From positions 1 through 40,408 of the IMG/VR virus record IMGVR_UViG_2529292759_000002: 40,408 bases of DNA. One strand, 5' to 3'. This document shows positions 208 through 38,149 of this stretch, piece by piece. A program made the position numbers and the translations under genes. Position 1 is the stretch's first letter. Each line of letters starts with the position of its first letter. This stretch comes from a virus. Taxonomy: Duplodnaviria > Heunggongvirae > Uroviricota > Caudoviricetes. The notes under the pieces were generated by a model. It did no database searches. It worked only from the letters and a program-made list of their open reading frames with translations, and was not told the DNA's origin.

Positions 208-1464
208 GTGCTTACCGATACAAAATTAAAAAACCTCAAGCCGCAGGACAAACTGTACAAGGTCTCCGATCGTGACGGGCTGTATGTAGCTGTGCTTACG
301 TCAGGCACGGTCTCGTTTCGCTATGACTACCGTATCAACGGTCGCCGCGAAACACTGGTAATCGGGCAGTATGGGCGTGACGGTATCAGCCTGGCAGAAG
401 CGCGAGAAGAACTGATTGCTGCAAAGAAGCTGCTTAAAGCAGGCCAGTCACCGGCTGCGGCTAAACGTGACGGTATCAAAAAGATTCGTGGTGCCGAGAC
501 GTTTGCGGTACATACCGACAGTTATATGAAACACGTCATCCTGGCTGACAGTACCCGCGCAATGAAGCAGGCGGTGATCGACCGTGACATACTTCCTGTT
601 CTTGGTAACAAAATGATGGCTGAAATTACCACATCGATGGTTCGTGATTTGTGTGACCGGATTGTCGAACGCGGTGGTCGGGCAACAGCAGTACAGGCCA
701 GGGAGATCATCAGCAGCGTATACCGTCACGCCAATGACCGTGGTCATGGTTTGTTTAATCCTGCGGCTGACATTAAACCTTCGTCTATCGCCATATTTAA
801 ACCACGAGAGCGAACACTGACACCAGAAGAAATTGGCCTGTTCTTCCGCACGCTGGATGCCATTGGTGCTATGGGCACTATGAAAATGGCTTTAAAACTG
901 GTGCTTATCACTATGGTTCGTAAGGGCGAATTCACCAATGCAACGTGGGATGAAATAGATTTTAAAAAATGGACATGGACAATTCCTTCAGACCGCATGA
1001 AGGGAAGCCGGGCGCATGTTATTTACCTGCCTAAACAGGCTCAGGATATATTGGTCGGGTTGCAGATGTGCGCTGGTGGAAGTGAATATCTGGTTCCTGG
1101 TCGTTACAATTTCCGGAAGCCATTATCTAATGCCGCGCTGAACTCTCTGATCGACAGAACGGTGAAAATAATAAATGAAGATGGTGAGCATATTCAGGGC
1201 TTCACCGTACACGATATGCGCCGTACAGCCAGTACGTTGTTGCATGAGGCTGGTTATCCTTCAGACTGGATTGAAAAGGCTCTGGCACATGAGCAGAAAG
1301 GTGTGCGCGCCGTATATAACAAAGCGGAATACGCCAGACAGCGCGCCTACATGTTGCAGCAGTGGGCCGATATGATTGATTCCTGGATTAACGGGGAGCA
1401 TACAGATCTGATTCCGTTCTCCCCGTCGAAGTTTGAGAGGTGGATGGAAGACAGTAATAAATAA
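208..1464 (+). CDS. int: Tyrosine recombinase / phage integrase, P4-type (GTG start)
   Basis: 418 aa; N-terminus MLTDTKLKNLKPQDKLYKVSDRDGLYV typical of P4/CP4-57-type integrases; C-terminal HDMRR and catalytic Tyr region (VRAVYNKAEY). Confidence 0.9.
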   Translation: MLTDTKLKNLKPQDKLYKVSDRDGLYVAVLTSGTVSFRYDYRINGRRETLVIGQYGRDGISLAEAREELIAAKKLLKAGQSPAAAKRDGIKKIRGAETFAVHTDSYMKHVILADSTRAMKQAVIDRDILPVLGNKMMAEITTSMVRDLCDRIVERGGRATAVQAREIISSVYRHANDRGHGLFNPAADIKPSSIAIFKPRERTLTPEEIGLFFRTLDAIGAMGTMKMALKLVLITMVRKGEFTNATWDEIDFKKWTWTIPSDRMKGSRAHVIYLPKQAQDILVGLQMCAGGSEYLVPGRYNFRKPLSNAALNSLIDRTVKIINEDGEHIQGFTVHDMRRTASTLLHEAGYPSDWIEKALAHEQKGVRAVYNKAEYARQRAYMLQQWADMIDSWINGEHTDLIPFSPSKFERWMEDSNK

Positions 1465-1466
1465 TT

Positions 1467-2126
1467 CTATCCTTCCTGGACTTTGGTAAGCGTCAGATTT
1501 CCGCAGAACACTGCGCCGGTGTCGATGTACATTTGGTTTGCATACACCAGTGGGTGATGTGCTGGCGTATGACCGAAGATGAACAAATCGGCACCGGTTA
1601 TCTCCGAGACAATACCGTCCTGCGCGTCGCTAACCCGCTCACGATTCCATATCACCATTTCTTCCGGTACTGGCTTATCGAATGCGTATTCGTTGTGCGG
1701 GTAGTCTGCGTGGCAGATGACGACCTTCTTATTGCCGGTAACCAGTTCGATAATCATCGGGAGGTTGGTAACCTTTGGCAGAAGGTATTTGAGTTGCACA
1801 TCCTGCTCAGAATCAAGTTGGTGCCACCATCCACCGCCGTTTGACATCCAATGTCCGAAACTTCCGCCGTTGACCAGTGCATCCAGCATCATCTGCTCAT
1901 GGTTGCCACGAACAGCTCGGAACCACGGCATAGTAATCAAATCCAGGCATTCGACGTTTTCAGCGCCGCGGTCAACAAGGTCACCAACGGAAATAAGCAA
2001 ATCGCGCGCCGGGTCGAATGAAACTTTGTCGAGTTCGTTCATCAGCAGTGTGTAGCACCCATGCAGATCGCCGACGACGAAGATATTGCACCAGTCAGCG
2101 CCATTGATGCGTTGATATAGGTTCAT
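1467..2126 (-). CDS. Ser/Thr protein phosphatase, lambda PPase type
   Basis: Start taken at internal Met (MNLYQ...); GDLHG, GDLVDRG and GNHE metallophosphatase motifs; long collinear similarity to lambda phosphatase as recalled. ATGA overlap with the upstream gene. Confidence 0.85.
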
Positions 2127-2785
2127 GCTGCACGCTCCCGCCCCTGGTTGTCTGTTGGTGACAGCGGAGCATTGCTGAATGCATTTGTTAATCCGCCAAT
2201 ATCCAACGCGTATCCAGGATGTAGTTGCACTGCCGGGTCTTCGCACTGATTACCCCAAACATCGAAACCATGAGACGTCTGGCGGGCGAACAGTTCAATG
2301 CGAGAAACATCGCCTAATAATTGCACAAGTTTTTCACGAACGATATCTGGCTTTCTTGAATGCTCAAGCCGCGGTGCGGTAAATGACTGAACGATCCCTG
2401 CATTAATGCGCGTAGGTAGTTTTCCCTTTACCGCAAACAGGCAATCTTCACTATTGGCGCGAGTCATGTGTCCCATACCCATAACCAGTTTATCTGGTTG
2501 TCGACTACCACATTTTATCCACGTGAAGCCCTTCATCGTCATCAGACGAAATCCCCAGGCTTCAACAACTTTTAGTGCTTCGAGTGGTTGTGTTGGCACC
2601 CACCACATGGCCAACAGACAGTTTTCAGCGGTCAAATCCCACACAGGAAGGCGGCAGATATCCAGCACACTCATAACCGGATATTTAAAACCGGCACCGC
2701 GATTACCATCTGCGGCTTTGTCCCGGTATACCCAGGGTGGATCTGCATAGATTAGTGTGTATTTCTTAGTCATAAACCACCCCAC
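2123..2785 (-). CDS. DNA N6-adenine methyltransferase, MT-A70-like (DPPW motif); orphan, no cognate nuclease seen
   Basis: IYADPPW motif near the N-terminus; 220 aa; start is GTG at 2785 or ATG at 2773. Confidence 0.7.
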
Positions 2786-3065
2786 AACATCCTATGCCGC
2801 TATAGTCGCCACGGCGAAGGCCGTTACCTTTTGTGATACATTGGTCCCTGCGAACCGCGATCCTTGCACGTTCAACATCACCAGAAGCAACATCCATACA
2901 CTGAAGCCAAAGGTGAGCGGCAATGCGGAACTGCCCTTTTTTCTCTCTTTCAATCGCGCGTTTTTCGATCTCTATCGCCGCAGGAGTAACGGCGACAATC
3001 TTTGACGGACTGCGCATTGAAACCTTATTCATGTGGTATTTTTCAAGTCGGCTTAACTTTCTCAC
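2766..3065 (-). CDS. Hypothetical protein (uncertain gene)
   Basis: 99-aa ORF in the leftward operon; no recognisable motif; overlaps the methyltransferase start. Confidence 0.3.
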   Translation of the reverse strand: MRKLSRLEKYHMNKVSMRSPSKIVAVTPAAIEIEKRAIEREKKGQFRIAAHLWLQCMDVASGDVERARIAVRRDQCITKGNGLRRGDYSGIGCCGVVYD

Positions 3066-3174
3066 TTAATCCAACCCTCTCTGAAAATTAATGCCAGCAG
3101 ATAAAGCCATGCTGAAACAGAGGCCAGGAATAAGTACCATCCTGACCATTTGCTCCAGTGCCTTAGCAGCGCAC

Positions 3175-3423
3175 TCATGCAGCGTTGCTCACGGGACGAT
3201 ATACACGTTGCTGAACAGGAGGCTTTTTACCCTGGAACTCTGCCGGGCTTGCTGCCTGACGTTCATCAAGCCAACGCTCAACTTCATCACGGTTCCATGC
3301 GCAGCGTTTATCGGTGATATACCAGCGTTTAGGAAATTCCCCTGCGCGCTCCATACGGTCGATAGTGCTCCATGACAGTGGCACCACCGCCAGGAGTTCT
3401 TTCTTACCTAATGCACCTTTCAT
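3175..3423 (-). CDS. AlpA/Xis-family small DNA-binding protein; candidate excisionase or regulator
   Basis: 82 aa; pattern LSWSTIDRMERAGEFPKRWYI...RCAWNRDEVERWLDER matches the AlpA/excisionase HTH signature. Confidence 0.65.
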   Translation of the reverse strand: MKGALGKKELLAVVPLSWSTIDRMERAGEFPKRWYITDKRCAWNRDEVERWLDERQAASPAEFQGKKPPVQQRVYRPVSNAA

Positions 3424-3472
3424 GAATACCTCTCTTGGTTGCAGTGCGGCGCACGTGGCGCCGCGGTGGTGG

Positions 3473-4495
3473 TTACTCGAATTCTGGACGCATATCGTTA
3501 AGCGTCATCATGAATTTTTGGTGATATTCATCACCGAGCTTTTCAGCCATGGTGTTAATTTCATTTTCAGCGCGCTTGAACATCGTTTTTGCATCTTCAG
3601 CAGATGGATCCAGGCTATTAAGTATCGCGATGATATATTCTCGAGCTTCTTCTCGTTCTGAATCTGAAATTGGCGACAGGTGTTGACGCTCATCGTCAAC
3701 TACGGAATATTCACCAGTGATAACAGCTGCGTTATCTTGGCTAAGTCCAGCTTCAGCGCGCTCATCCATAACAACAGCCTTCTGCATTTCAATAGAAACA
3801 GGAAGATATTTGAATAGTCGGCGAATTACTGTTTTTTTAGCCATCTCATCGAAGTGATCAACCCATGGGCCACTGCTACCGGCTTTGCTCAGTGCACGAA
3901 CTTTCTCAATGTCTGCCCGGCTCATAACTTCAAATTGGACTCCGCCATCTTTCAGTCGTGCAACGGCGTAAACGTGCGTTAATTCTCCGCGGTCACCTGT
4001 TTCGCAAGGTAAATGCTCGAGCGTTTCTTCCAGGCCGTATGAGTAGCTGAATTTGTCGTTTGTATGTACGGTACGAGCCGAGATACTCAGGATCTGCCCA
4101 GAGCGGCGGGCAAGGTCAATCATTCCGCGATAGCCGATAATCAGCTGTGCTTCTGTAGATACGGTTTCCCATCTTCCATTTACTTTCTGGCGTTTGTCGA
4201 ACGGTATCAGGTAAGCGTGTCCAAGAGTTCCGCCTGGTTCAAGACCCAATTGGGCACATTGCATAATTGCCCCCAGGAAGCTGGCTTGGTCGCATGATGC
4301 AAGTTTTGGAACCTTTCGGATCTCTGTGGTTGCTATGCGCGCCAGACGGTCTGCTGTCATGTGCTTTGGAAGTGCCAAAGCCATCTGAGCTTTAATTTTT
4401 GGGTCTGCCAGAAGTCCGGCCAGAGTTGTTGGTTTCTCATTATGATGTGCAACTTGGTTACCGGTAGCCGCTGCCTTAAGTGCATTGATAGACAT
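3473..4495 (-). CDS. recT: RecT-family single-strand annealing recombinase
   Basis: 340 aa; strong similarity to Rac RecT as recalled (IIGYRGMIDLARRSGQI, THVYAVARLKDGG.QFEVM, GPWV.H..EMAKKT.IRRLFKYLPVSIE). Confidence 0.9.
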   Translation of the reverse strand: MSINALKAAATGNQVAHHNEKPTTLAGLLADPKIKAQMALALPKHMTADRLARIATTEIRKVPKLASCDQASFLGAIMQCAQLGLEPGGTLGHAYLIPFDKRQKVNGRWETVSTEAQLIIGYRGMIDLARRSGQILSISARTVHTNDKFSYSYGLEETLEHLPCETGDRGELTHVYAVARLKDGGVQFEVMSRADIEKVRALSKAGSSGPWVDHFDEMAKKTVIRRLFKYLPVSIEMQKAVVMDERAEAGLSQDNAAVITGEYSVVDDERQHLSPISDSEREEAREYIIAILNSLDPSAEDAKTMFKRAENEINTMAEKLGDEYHQKFMMTLNDMRPEFE

Positions 4496-6008: not shown

Positions 6009-6593
6009 TTATTGTTTGTTTTTTTCGTTCTGGTTGATGACAAATTCAATGTAACTTTCGATCTTTGCTTTCTCGGTTTCGGGTAACAATGCGTAGCGTG
6101 AGCGGTCATAGTTGATAGTCGCAGGGTCGTGCGGGTGAATCAGTAGTTCATATCCGTGACGCCCGAATGCGGATGCAACATTCTCCAGGGTGGAAATGGA
6201 AACGCTGACCTCATTGTTTAACAGGCGGCTGATTGTCACCTGGGCGACGCCGGATGCGCGGTGAAGTTTTCCCTGTGTTGAAAGGTCGCGGCTTTCGCTC
6301 ATCCAGCGTTCCAGGTTGTGAGCCGCCAGCTGACCTATATCGCTCGGGCCGACAGGCTGAAAACCCTCCTGAGAAAGCGAACGATCAATATCAAGCCAGT
6401 TACGGGGTTTATTGGCGGCAGCTTCAATTTTTCGTGCAACCTGGTCGCCGATAACCTTCTTGCCAAGAGCCCAGCGGTTTACCAGATTTGCCTGAGTTCC
6501 AAGTTTTTCTGCCATCCGCGTCTGAACACCATTGAATTCACGGTCGATCAAGTCGTTGAGATTTTGCCTGCGGACGTCCTGGATACTTTTCAT
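6009..6593 (-). CDS. Prophage repressor candidate: tandem HTH (XRE-like) protein with no recognisable S24 autopeptidase domain
   Basis: 194 aa; two HTH-like segments (QTRMAEKLGTQANLVNRWALG and ASGVAQVTISRLLNNEV); divergent from the Cro-like gene with operator-like palindromes between; no GxSM...K signature. Confidence 0.7.
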   Translation of the reverse strand: MKSIQDVRRQNLNDLIDREFNGVQTRMAEKLGTQANLVNRWALGKKVIGDQVARKIEAAANKPRNWLDIDRSLSQEGFQPVGPSDIGQLAAHNLERWMSESRDLSTQGKLHRASGVAQVTISRLLNNEVSVSISTLENVASAFGRHGYELLIHPHDPATINYDRSRYALLPETEKAKIESYIEFVINQNEKNKQ

Positions 6594-6648: not shown

Positions 6649-6711
6649 TTACCCAACAGGTAAATGCACCTCATAGGTAACTATCCTTGATTTTTGTTAC
6701 CTTATGGGTGA
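6649..6711. promoter_or_regulatory. OR-like region: three 15-bp palindromic sites between the repressor and Cro-like genes
   Basis: TTACCCAACAGGTAA (6649-6663), GCACCTCATAGGTAA (6666-6680), TTACCTTATGGGTGA (6697-6711); triple arrangement resembles a lambdoid OR. Confidence 0.6.
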
Positions 6712-6747: not shown

Positions 6748-6978
6748 ATGAGCGATAACGGACATTTCGATTTCAAAAAGCACTGGCTTGCACTTACTCC
6801 GGATGAGCGTGAAGCCTTCGCACAGGAAGCCGGAACGACGAGTCACTATATCCAGACTCACTTAACAGGTAAGCGCAAAATGCCAGGTAAAGTATTGATG
6901 AATGGGCTTTTTAAAGCCTGTAAAACAAGACAATGGTTGCGCTCAAAAGCAGAACTGGCATACTTCTTCTACTCATGA
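6748..6978 (+). CDS. Cro-like small DNA-binding protein
   Basis: 76 aa, basic; divergent from the repressor across the operator region; AGCTATG start context. Confidence 0.55.
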   Translation: MSDNGHFDFKKHWLALTPDEREAFAQEAGTTSHYIQTHLTGKRKMPGKVLMNGLFKACKTRQWLRSKAELAYFFYS

Positions 6979-15488: not shown

Positions 15489-15507
15489 GATTATACCTTT
15501 AAGGTAA
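15470..15507. promoter_or_regulatory. Palindromic site (ATACCTTTAAGGTAA 15493-15507) plus half-site (TTACC 15470-15474) at the moron start; a TATAAT hexamer overlaps
   Basis: Minus strand reads TTACCTTAAAGGTATAATCATG; a second ATTACCTTAAAG copy lies 25 bp downstream in the transcript. Confidence 0.5.
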
Positions 15508-15711: not shown

Positions 15712-15788
15712 TGGCGTGGCATGCAGGATTCGAACCTGCGACCAACCGCTTAGAAGGCGGTTGCTCTGTCCAACTGAGCTAATGCCAC
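15712..15788 (-). tRNA. tRNA-Arg (anticodon UCU), argU-like
   Basis: Hand-folded cloverleaf: acceptor GTGGCAT/ATGCCAC, D-stem GCTC/GAGC, anticodon stem ACCGC/GCGGT with loop CTTCTAA, T-arm GCAGG-TTCGAAT-CCTGC, encoded CCA; 77 nt. Confidence 0.85.
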
Positions 15789-32785: not shown

Positions 32786-33418
32786 TTAATGCAGTTTATC
32801 TTTGCTTATAACCAGTAGTCTGTGGGTATGCACATCTTTATCACTGCCCCAACAGAAATCAGCCCACTGGCTATAGAAATCATCCCATGATGTCATGAAG
32901 CTAAGAGGTCTATCTTCTTCAGAGCCATCTGAAACGTATACATTATATCCTGGGGTGTTTATAGCCCAAGAAATCATTCTTTCCCAGAATCTTCTCCCAT
33001 CGATTGTTTGTTGCTCATCAGATACAACGATCGCATATTGCTCTAGGAAGAACTGAAAAAAAATCTGAGGCAAACCATGAACAGCACGGTCATGAATAAC
33101 ATTAGGCGTACGCCATACCATGATCTGCGTACATGTTCTTTTGGCTTCGACGATATCTTCCCGAAAGATTAACTTAACCGCATACACCGTTTCTGGAGTA
33201 TCGCTGGTAGTAATCATTCTGTAATGATCGCCATTACAAGATTTTACAAGGCGATAACCATAAGGTGTTGTGAATCCCGGAAGAACGAAATCAACCACAC
33301 CTTTCGCTAAGTAGCTTTCGGTGTGACTAGTGTTCTTCTCAGACATGTTCAGTTTTCTATCGAAATCTGCTTCTGGGATAATGTATGGCATCGCTTTTCT
33401 TGTTGTATTTGTTCTCAT
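32786..33418 (-). CDS. Accessory protein of unknown function (210 aa), AT-rich
   Basis: Reverse strand within the late region; GGAGG 3 nt before the ATG; own upstream palindromic site and strong terminator. Confidence 0.55.
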   Translation of the reverse strand: MRTNTTRKAMPYIIPEADFDRKLNMSEKNTSHTESYLAKGVVDFVLPGFTTPYGYRLVKSCNGDHYRMITTSDTPETVYAVKLIFREDIVEAKRTCTQIMVWRTPNVIHDRAVHGLPQIFFQFFLEQYAIVVSDEQQTIDGRRFWERMISWAINTPGYNVYVSDGSEEDRPLSFMTSWDDFYSQWADFCWGSDKDVHTHRLLVISKDKLH

Positions 33419-33477: not shown

Positions 33478-33492
33478 TTACCCTTGAGGTAA
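33478..33492. promoter_or_regulatory. 15-bp palindrome (TTACCCTTGAGGTAA) upstream of the 210-aa accessory gene
   Basis: Perfect site 60 bp upstream of the ATG at 33418. Confidence 0.5.
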
Positions 33493-33565
33493 TAGTACGC
33501 TATTCACCCCCAGTCTGCAATCTGTACAGAATTATTTAAAGGCACATCCCTGTGCCGCCGTTCTG

Positions 33566-34261
33566 TCAGAAGAACCCTGCCTTGTCGTTGATGTACTCCG
33601 CGTGGGTCTGGATATCACGCAGGCATTTGCTCACACCGACGATGTAGCAGAACATGGTGGTCAGTTCCGCCGCCGCGCCCGATACGTCGTGCCCGTCTTC
33701 CTGTAACTGGTTCAGCAGATTCATCAGCAGTGAGTTCTCCGTCAGGCCGAGAACACCAGACGGCGAATGAATCAGGCTACGGTAGCCGGGCTTCAGTGGG
33801 GCACTGTAGGTTTTGTTCTCTATCTTCATCGCCTGCATTACTGCTGACGCCGTGGCGTTGGCTACCTGGTCGGCAACCATCTTTATGCGTTCTTCCTGCG
33901 GGAGCGAGTTTTTAATGTAACTTCCGGTGCGGCGGATCTGAGGAAGAACCTCACCTGTAACCCATTTACGAAAGCGGTAGGGGATAGTGCCTGGTGTCAC
34001 TGCGTCGCGGCAGCGGAGGATCAGTGTGTAGAGGCCTGACTCGGAGATGATGATCGATTCTTGCTCACCGCCAGGGGTGTCGGTTGAAGCGACGCCCTTC
34101 TCATCATCATCAAGTTTTCGAACAGCATCTCGATGGTTTGCTATGCCTATAGCCCGACAAACATCTGAAGCGATAAACCATGGCTCACCATTAATGACGA
34201 TTACCCGTATATCGGCTTGGGATTCGAAAGAAAAAATGGACGTGCTTTTTGTAGCTGTCAT
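33566..34261 (-). CDS. Bro-N / KilA-N domain antirepressor (Ant-like)
   Basis: 231 aa; N-terminal pattern IRVIVINGEPWFIASDVCRAIGIANHRDAVRKL...ESGLYTLILR typical of Bro-N antirepressors; C-terminal domain paralogous to the small upstream gene. Confidence 0.75.
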   Translation of the reverse strand: MTATKSTSIFSFESQADIRVIVINGEPWFIASDVCRAIGIANHRDAVRKLDDDEKGVASTDTPGGEQESIIISESGLYTLILRCRDAVTPGTIPYRFRKWVTGEVLPQIRRTGSYIKNSLPQEERIKMVADQVANATASAVMQAMKIENKTYSAPLKPGYRSLIHSPSGVLGLTENSLLMNLLNQLQEDGHDVSGAAAELTTMFCYIVGVSKCLRDIQTHAEYINDKAGFF

Positions 34262-34418
34262 AGTGGTTACCTTTTAGTCTGGTTAATCACCACTACCGAC
34301 GCCAATCGGTTGGTGGTGAACTGTGCAGGGTTGGCGTAACCGGCTAAAAGGACCCGGCGCACCTTTCGGTGCCCCCACACAGCCCACCATAATACGAATG
34401 TGGCCGTGCTATACGCAT

Positions 34419-34438
34419 AAAAAAACCGCTTGCGCGGT
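34419..34438 (-). terminator. Intrinsic terminator between the small SOS-box gene and the antirepressor gene
   Basis: Minus-strand ACCGCGCAAGCGGT hairpin followed by TTTTTTT. Confidence 0.55.
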
Positions 34439-34530
34439 GAATGCGCCTTTTAGTAATCCGGGACGCCAATCCCGGCACTGGATTTTGCCAGTGCTCGATT
34501 ACTATGGCACAAGAGGAGTGCGTTGTAAAT

Positions 34531-34545
34531 TTACCGCAAAGGTAA
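34531..34545. promoter_or_regulatory. 15-bp palindrome (TTACCGCAAAGGTAA) in the antirepressor upstream region
   Basis: Perfect site between the stop of the small gene and the terminator/leader of the antirepressor gene. Confidence 0.45.
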
Positions 34546-34576
34546 ATATAAGCACTCCATTTGGTGATTGCAAACC

Positions 34577-34834
34577 TTATCTGGTTTGTTTTCGTAATTG
34601 TTCGGCACAATAGTCGAGATGTGTTTGCAGATCCTGCATAGACATCTGTGAGCTGGTGACGTAGTTAATCAGTGCAGTCAGTTCGGCAAGTGGGCCATCG
34701 ACATTAAATCCATCCTTATCGAGATCCCGGAGTAATTTCATCAAGTGCGATCCCTCCACCAGTGACCTGACGCCTCCCGGCGTGTGAATCCTTTCGGTAA
34801 ATCCGTCTTCCAGTGGATAGTGATACTGCTGCAT
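34577..34834 (-). CDS. Small protein (85 aa) homologous to the C-terminal domain of the downstream antirepressor; SOS-box-preceded
   Basis: Start taken at the internal ATG (MQQYHYPLEDG...) because a LexA-type box and a palindromic site lie inside the longer ORF; GGAG Shine-Dalgarno 8 nt upstream; shared pattern IH.P.GV..L.E.S.LM.LL..L..DG..V.G...ELT...Y...L.D.QTH..Y with Ant residues about 155-225. Confidence 0.6.
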   Translation of the reverse strand: MQQYHYPLEDGFTERIHTPGGVRSLVEGSHLMKLLRDLDKDGFNVDGPLAELTALINYVTSSQMSMQDLQTHLDYCAEQLRKQTR

Positions 34835-34853
34835 CTTATCTTCTCCATGCAAT

Positions 34854-34873
34854 AACTGTATATTTATACAGTA
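34854..34873. promoter_or_regulatory. LexA (SOS) box
   Basis: AACTGTATATTTATACAGTA: CTGT-N8-ACAG with AT-rich spacer, 18/20 to the E. coli consensus; about 22 bp upstream of the small gene start. Confidence 0.75.
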
Positions 34874-34910
34874 GCAAATAATTTGTTTGCTATCCAGCAC
34901 GTTTTGCAAA

Positions 34911-34925
34911 TTACCTGAAAGGTAA
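34911..34925. promoter_or_regulatory. 15-bp palindrome (TTACCTGAAAGGTAA) upstream of the SOS box
   Basis: Perfect site about 40 bp upstream of the LexA box on the transcribed strand. Confidence 0.5.
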
Positions 34926-35029
34926 TATCTATTCGTATTTACAGCCTTTCTATCCATATGTGGTTTTCCAGGTAATAGAATAACCAGATATGCGGCGCAA
35001 CGGGTGCTGCGACTATCTGGAGATTTAAC

Positions 35030-38000
35030 ATGACGGTCTCAACCGAAGTTGACCACAACGAATACACCGGTAACGGCGTTACGACATCGTTTCCGTATAC
35101 TTTTCGAATTTTCAGAAAATCAGACCTGGTTGTTCAGGTGTCTGACCTGAACGGAAACGTAACAGAATTGGTTCTGGATACCGGTTATACGGTAACTGGG
35201 GCGGGCACTTATAGTGGCGGTTCTGTGGTTCTTCCGTCTCCGCTTGCTACTGGATGGCGAATTACGATAGATCGTGTGCTTGATGTAGTGCAGGAGACAG
35301 ACCTTCGCAATCAGGGAAAATTTTTCCCCGAAGTGCATGAAGATGCCTTTGACTACCTGACGATGCTGATCCAGCAATGTTTTGGGTGGTTCAGACGTGC
35401 ATTGATGAAACCATCTTTGCTTGCAAAATATTACGATGCAAAGCAAAACAAAATTTCTAACCTTGCAGATCCATCATTTGAGCAGGACGCTGTAAATAAT
35501 CGCTCAATGCGTAATTATGTCGATGCTGCAATCGCCGGGGTTGTTGGTGGTTTTGGTTGGTTTATTCAGTATGGTTCTGGGGCTGTGTACCGAACGTTCC
35601 AGGATAAAATGCGTGATGCTATTAGCCCCAAAGATTTTGGAGCTGTTGGTGATGGTATAAATGACGATTCCACTGCAATAAGCGCGTGCCTTGAAGCCTC
35701 ATCTCCAGGTTATAAAATTGACGGATTAGGGCTTACTCTTAAAGTATCAACTCTTCCGGATGTCAGTCGATTTAAAAATGCTCGTTTTTTATTTGAGAGA
35801 ATACCGGGCCAGCCTCTTTTTTATGCTTCTGAAGATTTTATCCAGGGAGAGTTATTTAAAATTACAGATACACCGTGGTACAACGCCTGGACGCAGGATA
35901 AAACGTTTGTATATGACAATGTCATCTATGCGCCTTTTATGGCTGGAGACCGCCATGGTGTAAATAACCTCCATGTTGCATGGGTTCGCTCAGGAGATGA
36001 CGGGAAGACCTGGACAACGCCGGAATGGCTTACAGATTTACATGAAAACTATCCCACAGTTAACTATCACTGCATGAGTATGGGGGTTGTCAGAAATCGC
36101 CTTTTTGCTGTAATTGAGACGCGGACCGTGAGCGGAAATAAACTGCAGGTTGCAGAGTTGTGGGATCGCCCAATGAGTCGCAGCCTTCGCGTTTATGGTG
36201 GTATAACGAAAGCAGCAAATCAGCAAGTCGCTTATATTCGCATTACTGATCACGGATTATTTGCTGGTGATTTTGTCAACTTCTCAAACTCTGGTGTTAC
36301 AGGTGTTACCGGGAATATGACGGTGACTACTGTTATTGATAAAAATACTTTTACAGTTACGACGCAAAATACCCAGGATGTGGATCAGAATAACGAGGGT
36401 AGATACTGGAGTTTTGGTACATCATTTCACTCGTCACCATGGAGAAAAACCAGTCTTGGAACTATTCCTTCTTTTGTTGACGGAAGCACTCCTGTTACTG
36501 AGATTCACAGTTTTGCGACGATTAGCGATAACAGTTTTGCTGTTGGCTACCATAATGGTGATATTGGTCCACGCGAGCTTGGGATACTCTATTTCTCTGA
36601 TGCTTTCGGTTCTCCTGGTAGCTTTGTTCGCAGACGCATACCTGCAGAATATGAGGCGAATGCATCTGAGCCATGTGTAAAATATTATGATGGCATTCTG
36701 TATCTGACGACCAGGGGGACATTAAGTACTCAACCCGGTAGTTCATTGCACAGAAGCTCTGATTTAGGTACATCATGGAATTCTCTTCGCTTCCCAAATA
36801 ATGTTCATCACTCAAACCTTCCTTTTGCCAAAGTTGGCGATGAGCTGATTATTTTTGGCAGTGAGCGCGCATTTGGTGAGTGGGAAGGAGGAGAACCTGA
36901 TAACCGTTATGCAGGAAACTATCCAAGAACATTTATGACCAGAGTTAACGTCAATGAGTGGAGTCTGGATAATGTAGAGTGGGTTAATGTTACTGATCAG
37001 ATTTATCAGGGCGGAATAGTTAACTCTGCGGTTGGTGTTGGTTCAGTTTGTATCAAAGACAACTGGCTGTACTACATTTTCGGTGGGGAAGACTTTCTAA
37101 ACCCATGGAGCATAGGGGATAACAACAGAAAATATCCTTATGTTCACGATGGTCACCCGGCTGATTTGTATTGTTTCAGGGTGAAAATTAAACAGGAAGA
37201 ATTTGTTTCAAGGGATTTTGTCTACGGAGCCACTCCTAACAGAACGCTTCCTACTTTTATGTCGACGTCAGGCGTGAGGACGGTTCCTGTACCCGTTGAT
37301 TTCACAGATGATGTTGCCGTCCAGTCACTGACTGTCCATGCAGGTACATCAGGACAAGTTCGCGCGGAAGTCAAACTTGAGGGTAATTACGCCATTATTG
37401 CGAAGAAAGTACCGTCTGATGATGTTACCGCTCAGAGATTAATCGTTAGCGGCGGTGAAACAACGTCTTCAGCAGATGGTGCAATGATAACGTTGCATGG
37501 TTCCGGAAGCAGTACTCCACGTCGCGCGGTATATAACGCACTCGAACATCTTTTTGAGAACGGAGATGTTAAACCTTATCTTGATAATGTAAATGCTCTT
37601 GGTGGTCCGGGAAACAGGTTCTCGACAGTTTATCTTGGCTCCAATCCTGTGGTTACCAGTGACGGAACATTAAAGACAGAGCCGGTCTCTCCTGACGAAG
37701 CATTGCTGGATGCCTGGGGTGACGTCAGGTATATCGCTTATAAATGGCTGAACGCTGTCGCTATAAAGGGGGAAGAAGGGGCGAGGATACATCATGGTGT
37801 AATCGCGCAGCAACTTCGTGATGTTCTTATTTCTCACGGACTCATGGAAGAAGAAAGCACAACATGCCGCTATGCCTTTCTTTGCTATGACGATTATCCC
37901 GCAGTATATGATGACGTCATTACTGGCCAAAGGGAAATGCCGCTGACTGATAATGACGGGAGCATCATTGTTGATGAGGATGATAATCCAGTGATGGTAA

Positions 38001-38149
38001 TAGAAGACATCATTGAGCGCGTTGAAATAACGCCAGCAGGATCTAGATGGGGGGTCAGACCTGATCTCTTATTCTATATCGAGGCAGCATGGCAGCGCAG
38101 AGAAATGGATAAGATAAAAGAGCGGGTTCAGTCTCTGGAAGAACGTTAA
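35030..38149 (+). CDS. Tailspike / tail fibre depolymerase with T7 gp17-like N-terminal anchor and C-terminal intramolecular chaperone domain
   Basis: 1039 aa; N-terminus YTGNGVTTSFPYTFRIFRKSDLVV resembles the T7 tail-fibre N-terminal domain; DFGAVGDGINDDSTAI motif typical of beta-helix (pectate-lyase-like) enzymes; Asp-box-like SGDDGKTW and SDLGTSW; C-terminal region (YLDNVNALGG...RIHHGVIAQQLRDVL...) resembles peptidase-S74 chaperone domains. Confidence 0.8.
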   Translation: MTVSTEVDHNEYTGNGVTTSFPYTFRIFRKSDLVVQVSDLNGNVTELVLDTGYTVTGAGTYSGGSVVLPSPLATGWRITIDRVLDVVQETDLRNQGKFFPEVHEDAFDYLTMLIQQCFGWFRRALMKPSLLAKYYDAKQNKISNLADPSFEQDAVNNRSMRNYVDAAIAGVVGGFGWFIQYGSGAVYRTFQDKMRDAISPKDFGAVGDGINDDSTAISACLEASSPGYKIDGLGLTLKVSTLPDVSRFKNARFLFERIPGQPLFYASEDFIQGELFKITDTPWYNAWTQDKTFVYDNVIYAPFMAGDRHGVNNLHVAWVRSGDDGKTWTTPEWLTDLHENYPTVNYHCMSMGVVRNRLFAVIETRTVSGNKLQVAELWDRPMSRSLRVYGGITKAANQQVAYIRITDHGLFAGDFVNFSNSGVTGVTGNMTVTTVIDKNTFTVTTQNTQDVDQNNEGRYWSFGTSFHSSPWRKTSLGTIPSFVDGSTPVTEIHSFATISDNSFAVGYHNGDIGPRELGILYFSDAFGSPGSFVRRRIPAEYEANASEPCVKYYDGILYLTTRGTLSTQPGSSLHRSSDLGTSWNSLRFPNNVHHSNLPFAKVGDELIIFGSERAFGEWEGGEPDNRYAGNYPRTFMTRVNVNEWSLDNVEWVNVTDQIYQGGIVNSAVGVGSVCIKDNWLYYIFGGEDFLNPWSIGDNNRKYPYVHDGHPADLYCFRVKIKQEEFVSRDFVYGATPNRTLPTFMSTSGVRTVPVPVDFTDDVAVQSLTVHAGTSGQVRAEVKLEGNYAIIAKKVPSDDVTAQRLIVSGGETTSSADGAMITLHGSGSSTPRRAVYNALEHLFENGDVKPYLDNVNALGGPGNRFSTVYLGSNPVVTSDGTLKTEPVSPDEALLDAWGDVRYIAYKWLNAVAIKGEEGARIHHGVIAQQLRDVLISHGLMEEESTTCRYAFLCYDDYPAVYDDVITGQREMPLTDNDGSIIVDEDDNPVMVIEDIIERVEITPAGSRWGVRPDLLFYIEAAWQRREMDKIKERVQSLEER

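What the first reader, a model, noticed from the sequence alone, without database searches (positions are those of the whole stretch)
33566..34925. SOS-box-controlled antirepressor module located in the late region, paired with a repressor lacking an autocleavage domain
A near-consensus LexA box (AACTGTATATTTATACAGTA, 34854-34873) sits about 22 bp upstream of an 85-aa gene (34577-34834, minus strand) whose product is homologous to the C-terminal domain of the Bro-N antirepressor encoded just downstream (33566-34261). The candidate repressor (6009-6593) shows two HTH units and no recognisable S24 Ser-Lys autopeptidase signature. This points to induction by a LexA-derepressed antirepressor rather than RecA-stimulated repressor cleavage. 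The unusual points are the paralogous two-gene arrangement (small SOS-gated protein plus full Bro-N protein separated by a terminator and a structured leader) and its location between ejection-protein and tailspike genes, reminiscent of the P22 immI position.
Basis: partly seen in the sequence, partly recalled or inferred. Interest (0 to 1): 0.8.

Follow-up and report, generated by a model that had tools for sequence, protein, structure and literature searches.

The report
Known SOS antirepressor plus RNA-gated paralog
This prophage carries the already characterised epsilon15/SPC32H-type induction switch (a small LexA-repressed antirepressor that disables a non-cleavable repressor). Next to it sits a second antirepressor gene whose "structured leader" is the well-known isrK/C4 antisense-RNA control cassette, so the finding is real but largely ordinary.

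Summary
A near-consensus LexA box (34854-34873) lies 19 nt upstream of an 85-aa gene (34577-34834, minus strand). Its product is about 88% identical to the crystallised SPC32H antirepressor Ant (PDB 5D50_E). The 194-aa repressor (6009-6593, minus strand) is a homolog of SPC32H Rep (5D50_A) and has no S24 peptidase domain. The window is a Uetakevirus (epsilon15/phiV10-like) prophage. The orthologous LexA box is conserved in 8 relatives, and it is the site of the single base change that separates SPC32N from SPC32H.

The "terminator plus structured leader" is two Rfam RNAs: isrK (34419-34494) and C4 antisense RNA (34309-34394). The C4 a'/b' sites pair with a1/b1 in isrK and with a2/b2 in the leader, and a2 covers the Shine-Dalgarno sequence of the Bro-N gene. 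Three-way compensatory changes in Tyrion, a Klebsiella prophage and N15 support this pairing. It is the P1 immI / N15 immA / Gifsy-1 isrK-anrP mechanism.

The C-terminal 80 aa of the Bro-N protein are a true paralog of Ant. Repressor operators (TTACC-N5-GGTAA, 14 in the window) abut both promoters. The module occurs in 236 of 5426 complete E. coli genomes. Only the tandem coupling of the two modules is undescribed.

The parts
34854..34873 (.). LexA (SOS) box, core CTGT-N8-ACAG at 34856-34871
   Evidence: 18/20 to consensus. Unique in the window against 0.09 expected. Conserved in 8 Uetakeviruses. The orthologous box carries the SPC32H/SPC32N C-to-A difference.
34577..34834 (-). ant: 85-aa small antirepressor (SPC32H Ant / epsilon15 gp19 ortholog); SD GGAG at 34843-34846
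   Evidence: PDB 5D50_E 'Anti-repressor protein' E 4e-47, about 88% identity. phrog_450 E 9e-48. phiV10p24 is annotated as similar to epsilon15p19.
34911..34925 (.). Repressor operator (TTACC-N5-GGTAA) abutting the TTGCAA hexamer (34904-34909) upstream of the LexA box
   Evidence: 14 such sites in the window against 0.79 expected. The orthologous site is annotated protein_bind 'repressor' in epsilon15 NC_004775. The arms are invariant in 8 phages.
34531..34545 (.). Repressor operator abutting the -35 of the isrK promoter
   Evidence: Exact TTACC-N5-GGTAA. The arms are invariant and the spacer varies in phiV10, Tyrion and the Klebsiella prophage. It is retained in TL-2011b.
34501..34529 (-). 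P_isrK: TTTACA-17-CATAGT with TG upstream of the -10; predicted start near 34494
   Evidence: Promoter scan. The -10 and its TG are invariant in 4 phages. In Gifsy-1 the isrK promoter drives the downstream antirepressor gene (PMC4825925).
34419..34494 (-). isrK sRNA with intrinsic terminator (stem 34425-34438); carries b1 UUGGCGU (34463-34469) and a1 CUAAAAGG (34446-34453)
   Evidence: Rfam RF01394 77.9 bits against gathering score 50. Fold and terminator. Site positions.
34309..34394 (-). C4 antisense RNA; a' CCUUUUAG (34344-34351, hairpin loop) and b' ACGCCAA (34331-34337, unpaired junction)
   Evidence: Rfam RF01695 77.7 bits against gathering score 45. MFE -45.6 kcal/mol, z -4.7. Cognate and non-cognate pairing matrix.
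34270..34305 (-). Leader targets of C4: b2 UUGGCGU (34299-34305) and a2 CUAAAAGG (34270-34277), which contains the SD of the Bro-N gene 7 nt before its AUG
   Evidence: Exact complements, and the only b+a site pairs in the window besides isrK. They covary with C4 in Tyrion, the Klebsiella prophage and N15.
34283..34390 (-). 35-aa orf45/icd-like upstream ORF starting at the AUGGUGG of C4 (doubtful as a gene)
   Evidence: Same start context as Gifsy-1 orf45. The stop lies 21 nt before the Bro-N AUG. The ORF is truncated in Tyrion and absent in the Klebsiella relative. No family hit.
33566..34261 (-). Second antirepressor gene: Bro-N domain (33941-34213) fused to an Ant-like C-terminal domain (33569-33814)
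   Evidence: Pfam Bro-N E 2e-21. The CTD matches the small Ant at E 8e-16, 5D50_E at E 1e-13 and phrog_450 at E 4e-36, and phrog_130 'anti-repressor Ant' covers the full length. N15 gp30 is 44% identical over the N-terminal part.
33541..33556 (-). Possible terminator hairpin after the Bro-N gene (GGCACA-GGGA-UGUGCC plus a U/A-rich tail)
   Evidence: Read directly from the sequence. Not called by the terminator scan.
6009..6593 (-). rep: 194-aa two-HTH repressor without an autopeptidase domain
   Evidence: 5D50_A 'Repressor' E 4e-42. 42% identity to epsilon15 gp38. Pfam gives HTH_3 only and no S24.
6649..6711 (.). Two operators (6649-6663 and 6697-6711) between rep and the cro-like gene (6748-6978)
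   Evidence: phrog_35 hit on the 76-aa product.

Best explanation
The region is the anti-immunity locus of a Uetakevirus (epsilon15/phiV10/SPC32H-like) prophage. It contains two antirepressor modules in tandem on the minus strand.

Module 1 is known and strongly supported. In the lysogen, host LexA sits on the box at 34854-34873 and blocks the ant promoter. DNA damage removes LexA, the 85-aa Ant is made, and Ant binds the non-cleavable two-HTH repressor Rep (6009-6593) and takes it off its dispersed TTACC-N5-GGTAA operators. The prophage is thereby induced without RecA-stimulated repressor cleavage.

Module 2 has its RNA layer well supported and its biological role inferred. A promoter abutted by a Rep operator (34501-34545) transcribes isrK. 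Read-through of the isrK terminator yields C4 RNA and the mRNA of a Bro-N protein whose C-terminal domain is a paralog of Ant. C4 pairs through its a' and b' sites with a2 and b2 in the leader. This covers the Shine-Dalgarno sequence and keeps the second antirepressor untranslated. isrK carries the decoy a1/b1 sites and relieves the block when abundant.

The second antirepressor is therefore gated by Rep at transcription and by C4/isrK at translation. It probably acts on the same Rep, either as a reinforcing or SOS-independent induction input or as an anti-immunity function on infection.
For: Module 1:
- Ant matches 5D50_E and Rep matches 5D50_A. Rep has no S24 domain.
- The LexA box is significant and conserved across E. 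coli, Salmonella, Enterobacter and Klebsiella phages while the flanks diverge.
- SPC32H and SPC32N differ within this box (ACAG to AAAG). From my recollection of Kim & Ryu 2013, that mutation gives constitutive Ant.
- Secondary literature states that Ant is a tetramer that breaks up the Rep tetramer (PMC9638917).

Operators:
- 14 sites in the window against 0.79 expected and 15 in epsilon15. They are annotated as repressor sites in NC_004775.

Module 2:
- isrK and C4 both score above the Rfam gathering thresholds. The same pair is found in phiV10, Tyrion, the Klebsiella prophage, TL-2011b, MS10711, N15 and Gifsy-1.
- The a/b complementarities are exact and unique in the window.
- Cognate C4-target pairs are fully complementary in five phages and non-cognate pairs are not. 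Tyrion has AGACCAA paired with UUGGUCU in both targets.
- The mechanism is established for Gifsy-1 (PMC4825925) and was recognised next to Bro-N genes in APSE phages (PMC7313666).
- The CTD paralogy is supported. The same CTD is fused to an AntA domain in MS10711, and the paralog pair is conserved in Klebsiella.
Against: - No experiment on this phage exists. LexA binding, Ant-Rep binding and C4 action are all inferred by homology.
- Rep is only 42-47% identical to the crystallised Rep, although Ant is about 88% identical.
- The sigma-70 scan found no canonical ant promoter.
- Module 2 is dispensable in some relatives. It is absent from SPC32H, epsilon15 and PAS61. In phiV10 it is inactivated by a 16-bp frameshifting deletion in the CTD.
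- Whether the Bro-N protein binds Rep at all is untested.
- The Rep operator next to the -35 could in principle activate rather than repress.
Confidence: 0.8

Rival explanations
1. The isrK-C4-Bro-N cassette is an independent mobile anti-immunity cassette (in the P1/P22 Ant sense) that landed in a cargo hot spot. It acts mainly during superinfection or against repressors of other prophages, and it has no functional link to the SOS-controlled ant next to it.
For: - The RNA cassette occurs in 279 phage records of unrelated types, including Stx phages, APSE and N15.
- It precedes non-homologous antirepressors: ORF6N AnrP in Gifsy-1, and Bro-N or AntA elsewhere.
- It is present in some Uetakeviruses and absent from others.
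- It has its own promoter.
- TL-2011b has a gene inserted between ant and the cassette.
- The neighbouring cargo varies.
Against: - The effector CTD is a paralog of the Ant domain. In the phage collection this domain is found only in 34 records, all from Escherichia, Salmonella, Klebsiella or Enterobacter, among them every Uetakevirus examined here, which suggests the same Rep family as target.
- The cassette carries a Rep operator that is conserved in four relatives.
- The ant-then-cassette order and orientation are conserved down to 65-77% DNA identity.
Confidence: 0.35
2. The Bro-N protein is the principal inducer and the small protein is an accessory or modulator. For example, it could be a dominant-negative or titrating fragment of the same domain.
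For: - The two proteins share the domain.
- Large Bro-N/Ant proteins are the classical antirepressors (PHROG annotations).
Against: - SPC32H and epsilon15 have only the small gene. SPC32H is SOS-inducible through it, from my recollection of Kim & Ryu 2013.
- The small protein itself is the chain crystallised with Rep.
- The phiV10 Bro-N gene is frameshifted.
Confidence: 0.05
3. Induction is classical: Rep is cleaved after RecA activation, and the LexA box is incidental or serves another gene.
For: None found beyond the general prevalence of cleavable repressors.
Against: - Rep has no S24 domain. It is a homolog of a repressor that is reported to be inactivated by an antirepressor rather than by cleavage.
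- The box is conserved and sits directly upstream of ant in all relatives.
Confidence: 0.03

Closest known systems
Salmonella phage SPC32H Ant/Rep antirepression switch (Kim & Ryu 2013 J Virol 87:11775; Kim et al. 2016 PNAS 113:E2480; PDB 5D50, 5D4Z)
   Same: Orthologous Ant (about 88% identity), homologous two-domain Rep, the same LexA box position, the same Rep operator upstream, and the same genome position between the internal virion protein genes and the tailspike.
   Different: SPC32H has only ant followed by a terminator, with no isrK, C4 or Bro-N gene. Rep here is only about 45% identical.
P1/P7 immI operon (c4-icd-ant; Citron & Schuster 1990)
   Same: A processed C4 antisense RNA whose a'/b' sites pair with a1/b1 upstream and a2/b2 downstream to block antirepressor synthesis (Rfam RF01695 hit; complementarities). 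The operon is also under phage repressor control, with many dispersed operators; the P1 side of that comparison is from my own knowledge.
   Different: Here a2 covers the SD of the antirepressor gene itself rather than that of an icd gene. The antirepressor is a Bro-N/Ant-domain fusion. The a1/b1 element is a separately terminated sRNA (isrK).
N15 immA (CA RNA-icd-antA/antB) plus LexA-controlled AntC (Ravin 1999; Mardanov & Ravin 2007)
   Same: isrK-like and C4 RNAs followed by a Bro-N protein (gp30, 44% identical in the N-terminal part), in a phage that also uses a LexA-controlled antirepressor and a non-cleavable repressor.
   Different: In N15 there is no CTGT-N8-ACAG box within about 2 kb of the RNA cassette, so the two inputs are unlinked. 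The C4 target is the RBS of gp32, not that of the Bro-N gene. No paralogy between AntC and the Bro-N protein is known to me.
Gifsy-1 isrK-orf45(STnc1160)-anrP-isrJ locus (Hershko-Shalev et al. 2016, PMC4825925)
   Same: Homologous isrK and C4-like RNAs. The promoter-isrK-leaky terminator-antirepressor layout is the same. An upstream ORF starts at the same AUGGUGG. IsrK activates antirepressor translation and promotes induction.
   Different: AnrP is an ORF6N protein unrelated to the Bro-N protein. The Gifsy-1 LexA-controlled antirepressor GfoA is elsewhere in that genome (PMC3121763). orf45 overlaps the anrP start, whereas here the upstream ORF stops 21 nt before the gene and is not conserved.
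P22 immI (ant, arc, mnt, sar RNA)
   Same: An antirepressor locus located in the late region just upstream of the tailspike gene, with an antisense RNA layer. The P22 details are from my own knowledge.
   Different: The proteins and RNA are unrelated. P22 Ant is controlled by Mnt/Arc, not LexA, and the P22 c2 repressor is RecA-cleavable.

Membership tests
SPC32H-type LexA-controlled Ant/Rep switch | Small (about 86 aa) Ant homologous to SPC32H Ant | tested here: met
   5D50_E E 4e-47, residues 2-84 aligned.
SPC32H-type LexA-controlled Ant/Rep switch | Two-domain HTH repressor homologous to SPC32H Rep and lacking an S24 autopeptidase domain | tested here: met
   5D50_A E 4e-42 over the full length. 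Pfam gives HTH only.
SPC32H-type LexA-controlled Ant/Rep switch | LexA box directly upstream of ant, orthologous to the SPC32H box | tested here: met
   Column-aligned box in 8 phages. SPC32N differs from SPC32H in this box.
SPC32H-type LexA-controlled Ant/Rep switch | LexA binding, Ant-Rep complex formation and absence of Rep cleavage | not testable with these tools
   Needs EMSA, pull-down or cleavage assays.
P1/N15-type C4 antisense control of an antirepressor | C4 RNA with the family's fold | tested here: met
   RF01695 77.7 bits against gathering score 45. The MFE fold agrees, z -4.7.
P1/N15-type C4 antisense control of an antirepressor | a'/b' complementary to a2/b2 at the RBS of the downstream gene and to a1/b1 upstream | tested here: met
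   Exact 8-nt and 7-nt complements at both places and nowhere else in the window. Three-way covariation in 5 phages.
P1/N15-type C4 antisense control of an antirepressor | icd-like upstream ORF translationally coupled to ant | tested here: inconclusive
   A 35-aa ORF is present in the window and phiV10, with its stop 21 nt before the AUG. It is truncated or absent in Tyrion and the Klebsiella relative. a2 covers the SD of the Bro-N gene directly.
P1/N15-type C4 antisense control of an antirepressor | Processing of C4 from the precursor by RNase P | not testable with these tools
   A 3' ACCACCA end is present, but processing needs an experiment.
Gifsy-1 isrK-orf45-anrP locus | isrK sRNA with its own promoter and a leaky intrinsic terminator upstream of the antirepressor gene | tested here: met
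   RF01394 77.9 bits. Promoter and terminator predicted. Read-through itself was not tested.
Gifsy-1 isrK-orf45-anrP locus | Downstream protein homologous to AnrP | tested here: not met
   No similarity (E 22). AnrP is ORF6N and the window protein is Bro-N.
Bro-N antirepressors | Bro-N N-terminal domain | tested here: met
   PF02498 76.7 bits against cut-off 25.6.

The most novel reading that the evidence does not exclude
The two modules form a wired feed-forward cascade.

- No terminator lies between the ant stop codon (34577) and the isrK terminator. The SOS-induced ant mRNA would therefore end in isrK and carry the a1/b1 decoy for C4.
- Ant would at the same time lift Rep from the operator on the isrK promoter.
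- Both effects would unlock translation of a second antirepressor that bears a paralogous, portable Ant domain fused to Bro-N (or to AntA in MS10711).
- The result would be an induction switch that commits, or that has a second, SOS-independent entry point.
Probability: 0.25. Interest if true: 0.55.

Novelty: new member of a known kind. Interest (0 to 1): 0.3.

Why it matters
The finding shows that a sequence-only reading can recover a real induction mechanism, but it adds little new biology. The LexA-Ant-Rep switch is solved structurally, and the isrK/C4 control of antirepressors is established in P1, N15 and Gifsy-1.

The modest point of interest is that about 4% of complete E. coli genomes carry the two systems fused into one locus, with a shared effector domain and repressor operators on both promoters. 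This would be a tractable model for how a prophage integrates SOS, repressor occupancy and an sRNA sponge into one decision.

It also flags recurrent annotation errors: RNA genes called as 'Ash family' or hypothetical proteins, and a 126-aa mis-started Ant.

Tried and rejected
- **Primary papers not held.** The SPC32H papers and the N15 AntC paper are not in the library. I relied on PDB molecule names, GenBank annotations, secondary citations and my own recollection, and I have marked which is which.
- **No ant promoter called.** The sigma-70 scan found none. Manual placements (TTGCAA at 34904-34909, or TATAAA inside the box) stayed ambiguous, so I do not assign a promoter.
- **RNAduplex uninformative.** Run on the full-length RNAs it unfolds everything, and 8 of 500 shuffles did as well. 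I replaced it with exact-site and cross-phage matrices.
- **Alignment misregister.** MAFFT misaligned the a-sites around indels.
- **Homolog search limited.** The large search with the small Ant returned only close stand-alone homologs and no fusion architectures. PHROGs and tblastn supplied those instead.
- **No family hits.** NCBIfam and PADLOC gave nothing for Ant, the Bro-N protein or the 210-aa neighbour.
- **AnrP homology rejected**.
- **The 126-aa extended Ant ORF (34577-34957) rejected.** It would span the LexA box and the operator, the crystallised protein is 86 aa, and GGAG precedes the internal ATG.
- **The 37-aa 'ash family' ORF rejected as a gene.** It lies over the C4 RNA and has no family support.
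- **Structure prediction not run.** The sequence-level match of the CTD to the solved Ant chain (E 1e-13) already settles the homology.
Full report
**What the window is.** The window is a complete or nearly complete prophage of the genus Uetakevirus (epsilon15/phiV10/SPC32H-like).
- The finding region is 96-100% identical to Escherichia phages vB_EcoP_ZX5, TL-2011b and phiV10, and about 75% identical to Salmonella phages epsilon15 and SPC32H.
- An integrase lies at 208-1464. The tailspike (35030-38149) is an endosialidase with an S74 chaperone domain.

**Check of the observation.**
- The 20-mer AACTGTATATTTATACAGTA (34854-34873) matches the E. coli LexA consensus at 18 of 20 positions.
- The stricter pattern ACTGTAT-N4-ATACAGT occurs once in the window against 0.09 expected. 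Of three CTGT-N8-ACAG matches it is the only AT-spaced one.
- The box ends 19 nt upstream of the ATG of an 85-aa minus-strand gene preceded by GGAG.
- The downstream 231-aa gene has a Bro-N domain. Its residues 150-223 are 42% identical to the small protein (E 8e-16).
- The 194-aa repressor candidate is on the minus strand of 6009-6593. It has one clear and one weak HTH and no S24 domain.

**Module 1 is a known system.**
- The small protein matches the 'Anti-repressor protein' chain of PDB 5D50 (E 4e-47, about 88% identity). The repressor matches the 'Repressor' chain of the same complex over its full length (E 4e-42).
- That complex is the Ant-Rep pair of Salmonella phage SPC32H. The GenBank record of SPC32H annotates ant in the same position, between the internal virion protein genes and the tailspike.
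- In an alignment of eight phages from E. coli, Salmonella, Enterobacter and Klebsiella, the LexA box is conserved while the flanks diverge.
- SPC32H and its derivative SPC32N differ in this stretch by a single C-to-A change in the ACAG arm of the box. From my recollection of Kim & Ryu 2013, that mutation gives constitutive Ant and lytic growth; the paper is not held in the library.
- Secondary sources describe Ant as a tetramer that breaks the DNA-binding Rep tetramer (PMC9638917). They place it among the LexA-controlled antirepressors of 186, N15 and the Gifsy phages (PMC3121763).

**Repressor operators.**
- The palindrome TTACC-N5-GGTAA occurs 14 times in the window against 0.79 expected and 15 times in epsilon15.
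- The epsilon15 GenBank record annotates these sites as repressor binding sites, including the one upstream of gp19, which is ant.
- In the window they sit at the rep/cro interval, at the leftward early promoter region, and ahead of the replication, terminase and structural genes.
- Three lie in the region of the finding: 34911-34925 (next to a TTGCAA hexamer upstream of the LexA box), 34531-34545 and 33478-33492.

**Module 2: the 'terminator and structured leader' are two known RNAs.**
- Rfam finds isrK (34419-34494, 77.9 bits) and C4 antisense RNA (34309-34394, 77.7 bits), both well above their gathering scores.
- A promoter-like site lies at 34501-34529 (TTTACA-17-CATAGT with an upstream TG) and would start transcription at the first base of isrK. 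The operator at 34531-34545 abuts its -35. The -10 and the operator arms are invariant in phiV10, Tyrion and a Klebsiella prophage.
- C4 folds as the family does (z -4.7). CCUUUUAG sits in a hairpin loop (a') and ACGCCAA in an unpaired junction (b').
- Exact complements of both occur together at only two places in the window. One is in isrK: UUGGCGU in the second hairpin loop and CUAAAAGG in the single-stranded stretch. The other is in the leader of the Bro-N gene, where CUAAAAGG contains the Shine-Dalgarno sequence 7 nt before the AUG.
- The sites covary three ways:
  - Tyrion has AGACCAA in C4 and UUGGUCU in both targets, and CCUUUGUAG against CUACAAAGG and CUACAGAGG.
  - The Klebsiella prophage has CCGUUUAG against CUAAACGG and CUAAGCGG.
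  - N15 uses entirely different sequences with the same logic.
- In a five-phage matrix all cognate pairs are complete and non-cognate pairs are not.
- This is the a'b'/a1b1/a2b2 mechanism of P1/P7 c4. The isrK-read-through-antirepressor arrangement was worked out experimentally in Gifsy-1, where IsrK activates antirepressor translation and contributes to induction (PMC4825925). Gifsy-1 itself scores for isrK, C4 and the Rfam family 'a1, b1 targets of C4' at its locus.
- The same RNA pair next to a Bro-N gene has been noted in APSE phages (PMC7313666). It occurs in 279 phage records.

**The second antirepressor.**
- Its N-terminal half is a Bro-N domain related to N15 gp30.
- Its C-terminal 80 residues match the small Ant, the solved Ant chain (E 1e-13) and phrog_450.
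- In the phage collection this domain occurs in only 34 records, all from Escherichia, Salmonella, Klebsiella or Enterobacter, and every phage compared in detail here is among them. Genomes with the fused copy also have the small copy.
- The paralog pair is equally divergent in the Klebsiella relative (42%), so the duplication is old.
- In E. coli MS10711 the identical CTD is fused to an AntA domain downstream of ant-isrK-C4. The Ant domain is therefore a portable effector.
- The Gifsy-1 AnrP is unrelated (ORF6N). The RNA cassette is therefore shared while the protein it controls is exchangeable.

**How the locus most likely works.**
- Shown by homology to experiments: LexA represses ant; SOS releases Ant; Ant inactivates Rep.
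- Supported by sequence and covariation: C4 masks the SD of the Bro-N gene, and isrK carries the decoy sites.
- Inferred:
  - Rep represses the isrK promoter.
  - The Bro-N/Ant-CTD protein targets the same Rep.
  - The second module reinforces induction, provides an SOS-independent route as in Gifsy-1, or acts as anti-immunity on infection.
- An attractive but untested extension rests on the layout. No terminator is predicted between the ant stop codon and the isrK terminator. The SOS-induced ant mRNA should therefore end in isrK and could titrate C4.

**Limits and counter-evidence.**
- Module 2 is absent from SPC32H, epsilon15 and PAS61.
- In phiV10 it is inactivated by a 16-bp frameshifting deletion in the CTD.
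- In TL-2011b it is separated from ant by an inserted gene.
- It is therefore accessory.
- The orf45/icd-like upstream ORF is not conserved in the closest relatives.
- No canonical ant promoter was called.

**Prevalence and novelty.**
- At least 80% of the 33566-34925 module is present in 236 of 5426 complete E. coli genomes. It is also in published phage genomes, where it is annotated as antirepressor or anti-immunity genes.
- Both modules belong to known kinds. Only their tandem wiring and the shared effector domain appear undescribed in the literature I could search.
- I rate the finding as real, correctly interpreted, and of low to moderate interest.

Noticed in passing
window 151, 5875, 5937, 6649, 6697, 8956, 9018, 12542, 12560, 15493, 16111, 33478, 34531, 34911 (15-bp sites): The repressor operator palindrome TTACC-N5-GGTAA is dispersed over the whole genome in front of early, replication, packaging, structural and accessory genes: 14 sites against 0.8 expected. 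This is a P1-like 'many operators' design. The same motif gives 15 sites in epsilon15 even though Rep is only 42% identical.
   Followed up: partly
L001 (phiV10) 3002-3681; corresponds to window 33705-33720: phiV10 has a 16-bp deletion inside the Ant-like C-terminal domain of the Bro-N gene. It splits the gene into p23 and p22, so the second antirepressor is probably inactive in this laboratory phage. O157 typing phages 9 and 10 show the same two-piece match to the domain.
   Followed up: yes
L012 (E. coli MS10711 chromosome) 1159-4429: This prophage has ant-isrK-C4 followed by an AntA-domain protein whose last 82 residues are identical to the window's Bro-N C-terminal domain. It also has a second, inverted isrK-C4-Bro-N cassette and a truncated third antirepressor gene. 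This is evidence of domain shuffling and rearrangement between cassettes.
   Followed up: partly
L008 (TL-2011b) 2251-2979: A 242-aa gene on the opposite strand is inserted between ant and the isrK operator/promoter. It has a transmembrane-like N-terminus and a Cys-rich C-terminus. The cargo downstream of the Bro-N gene also differs (YafO-family toxin).
   Followed up: no
window 34267-34380 (-) and L006 (N15) 1490-1780: The ORF annotated 'ash family protein' in phage ZX5, and the Pfam Phage_ASH match on the N-terminus of N15 gp32, both lie over the C4 RNA gene. The 'Ash' protein family may partly reflect conservation of the RNA rather than of a protein.
   Followed up: partly
window 34577-34957 (-): A 126-aa extended version of Ant is annotated in phage PAS61 and in a large database cluster (833 members). 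It starts upstream of the operator and the LexA box. It is very probably a wrong start call, because the solved protein is 86 aa.
   Followed up: partly
window 32786-33418 (-) with operator 33478-33492: A 210-aa gene of unknown function (phrog_1349, no Pfam, NCBIfam or PADLOC hit) has its own repressor operator. It travels next to the Bro-N gene in MS10711 but is replaced by other cargo in ZX5 and TL-2011b.
   Followed up: partly
window 34960-34985: An invariant ATTCTATTACC (minus-strand reading) lies about 55 nt upstream of the tailspike ATG in all eight phages aligned. It contains one operator half-site. It may be part of the tailspike promoter or a half-operator.
   Followed up: no
window 15712-15788 (-): A phage-borne tRNA-Arg (anticodon UCU) lies close to an operator site at 15493.
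   Followed up: no
window 35030-38149 (+): The tailspike is a full endosialidase (polysialic acid depolymerase domains plus the S74 intramolecular chaperone) grafted on an epsilon15-type N-terminal anchor. This implies a K1-capsulated E. coli host.
   Followed up: partly
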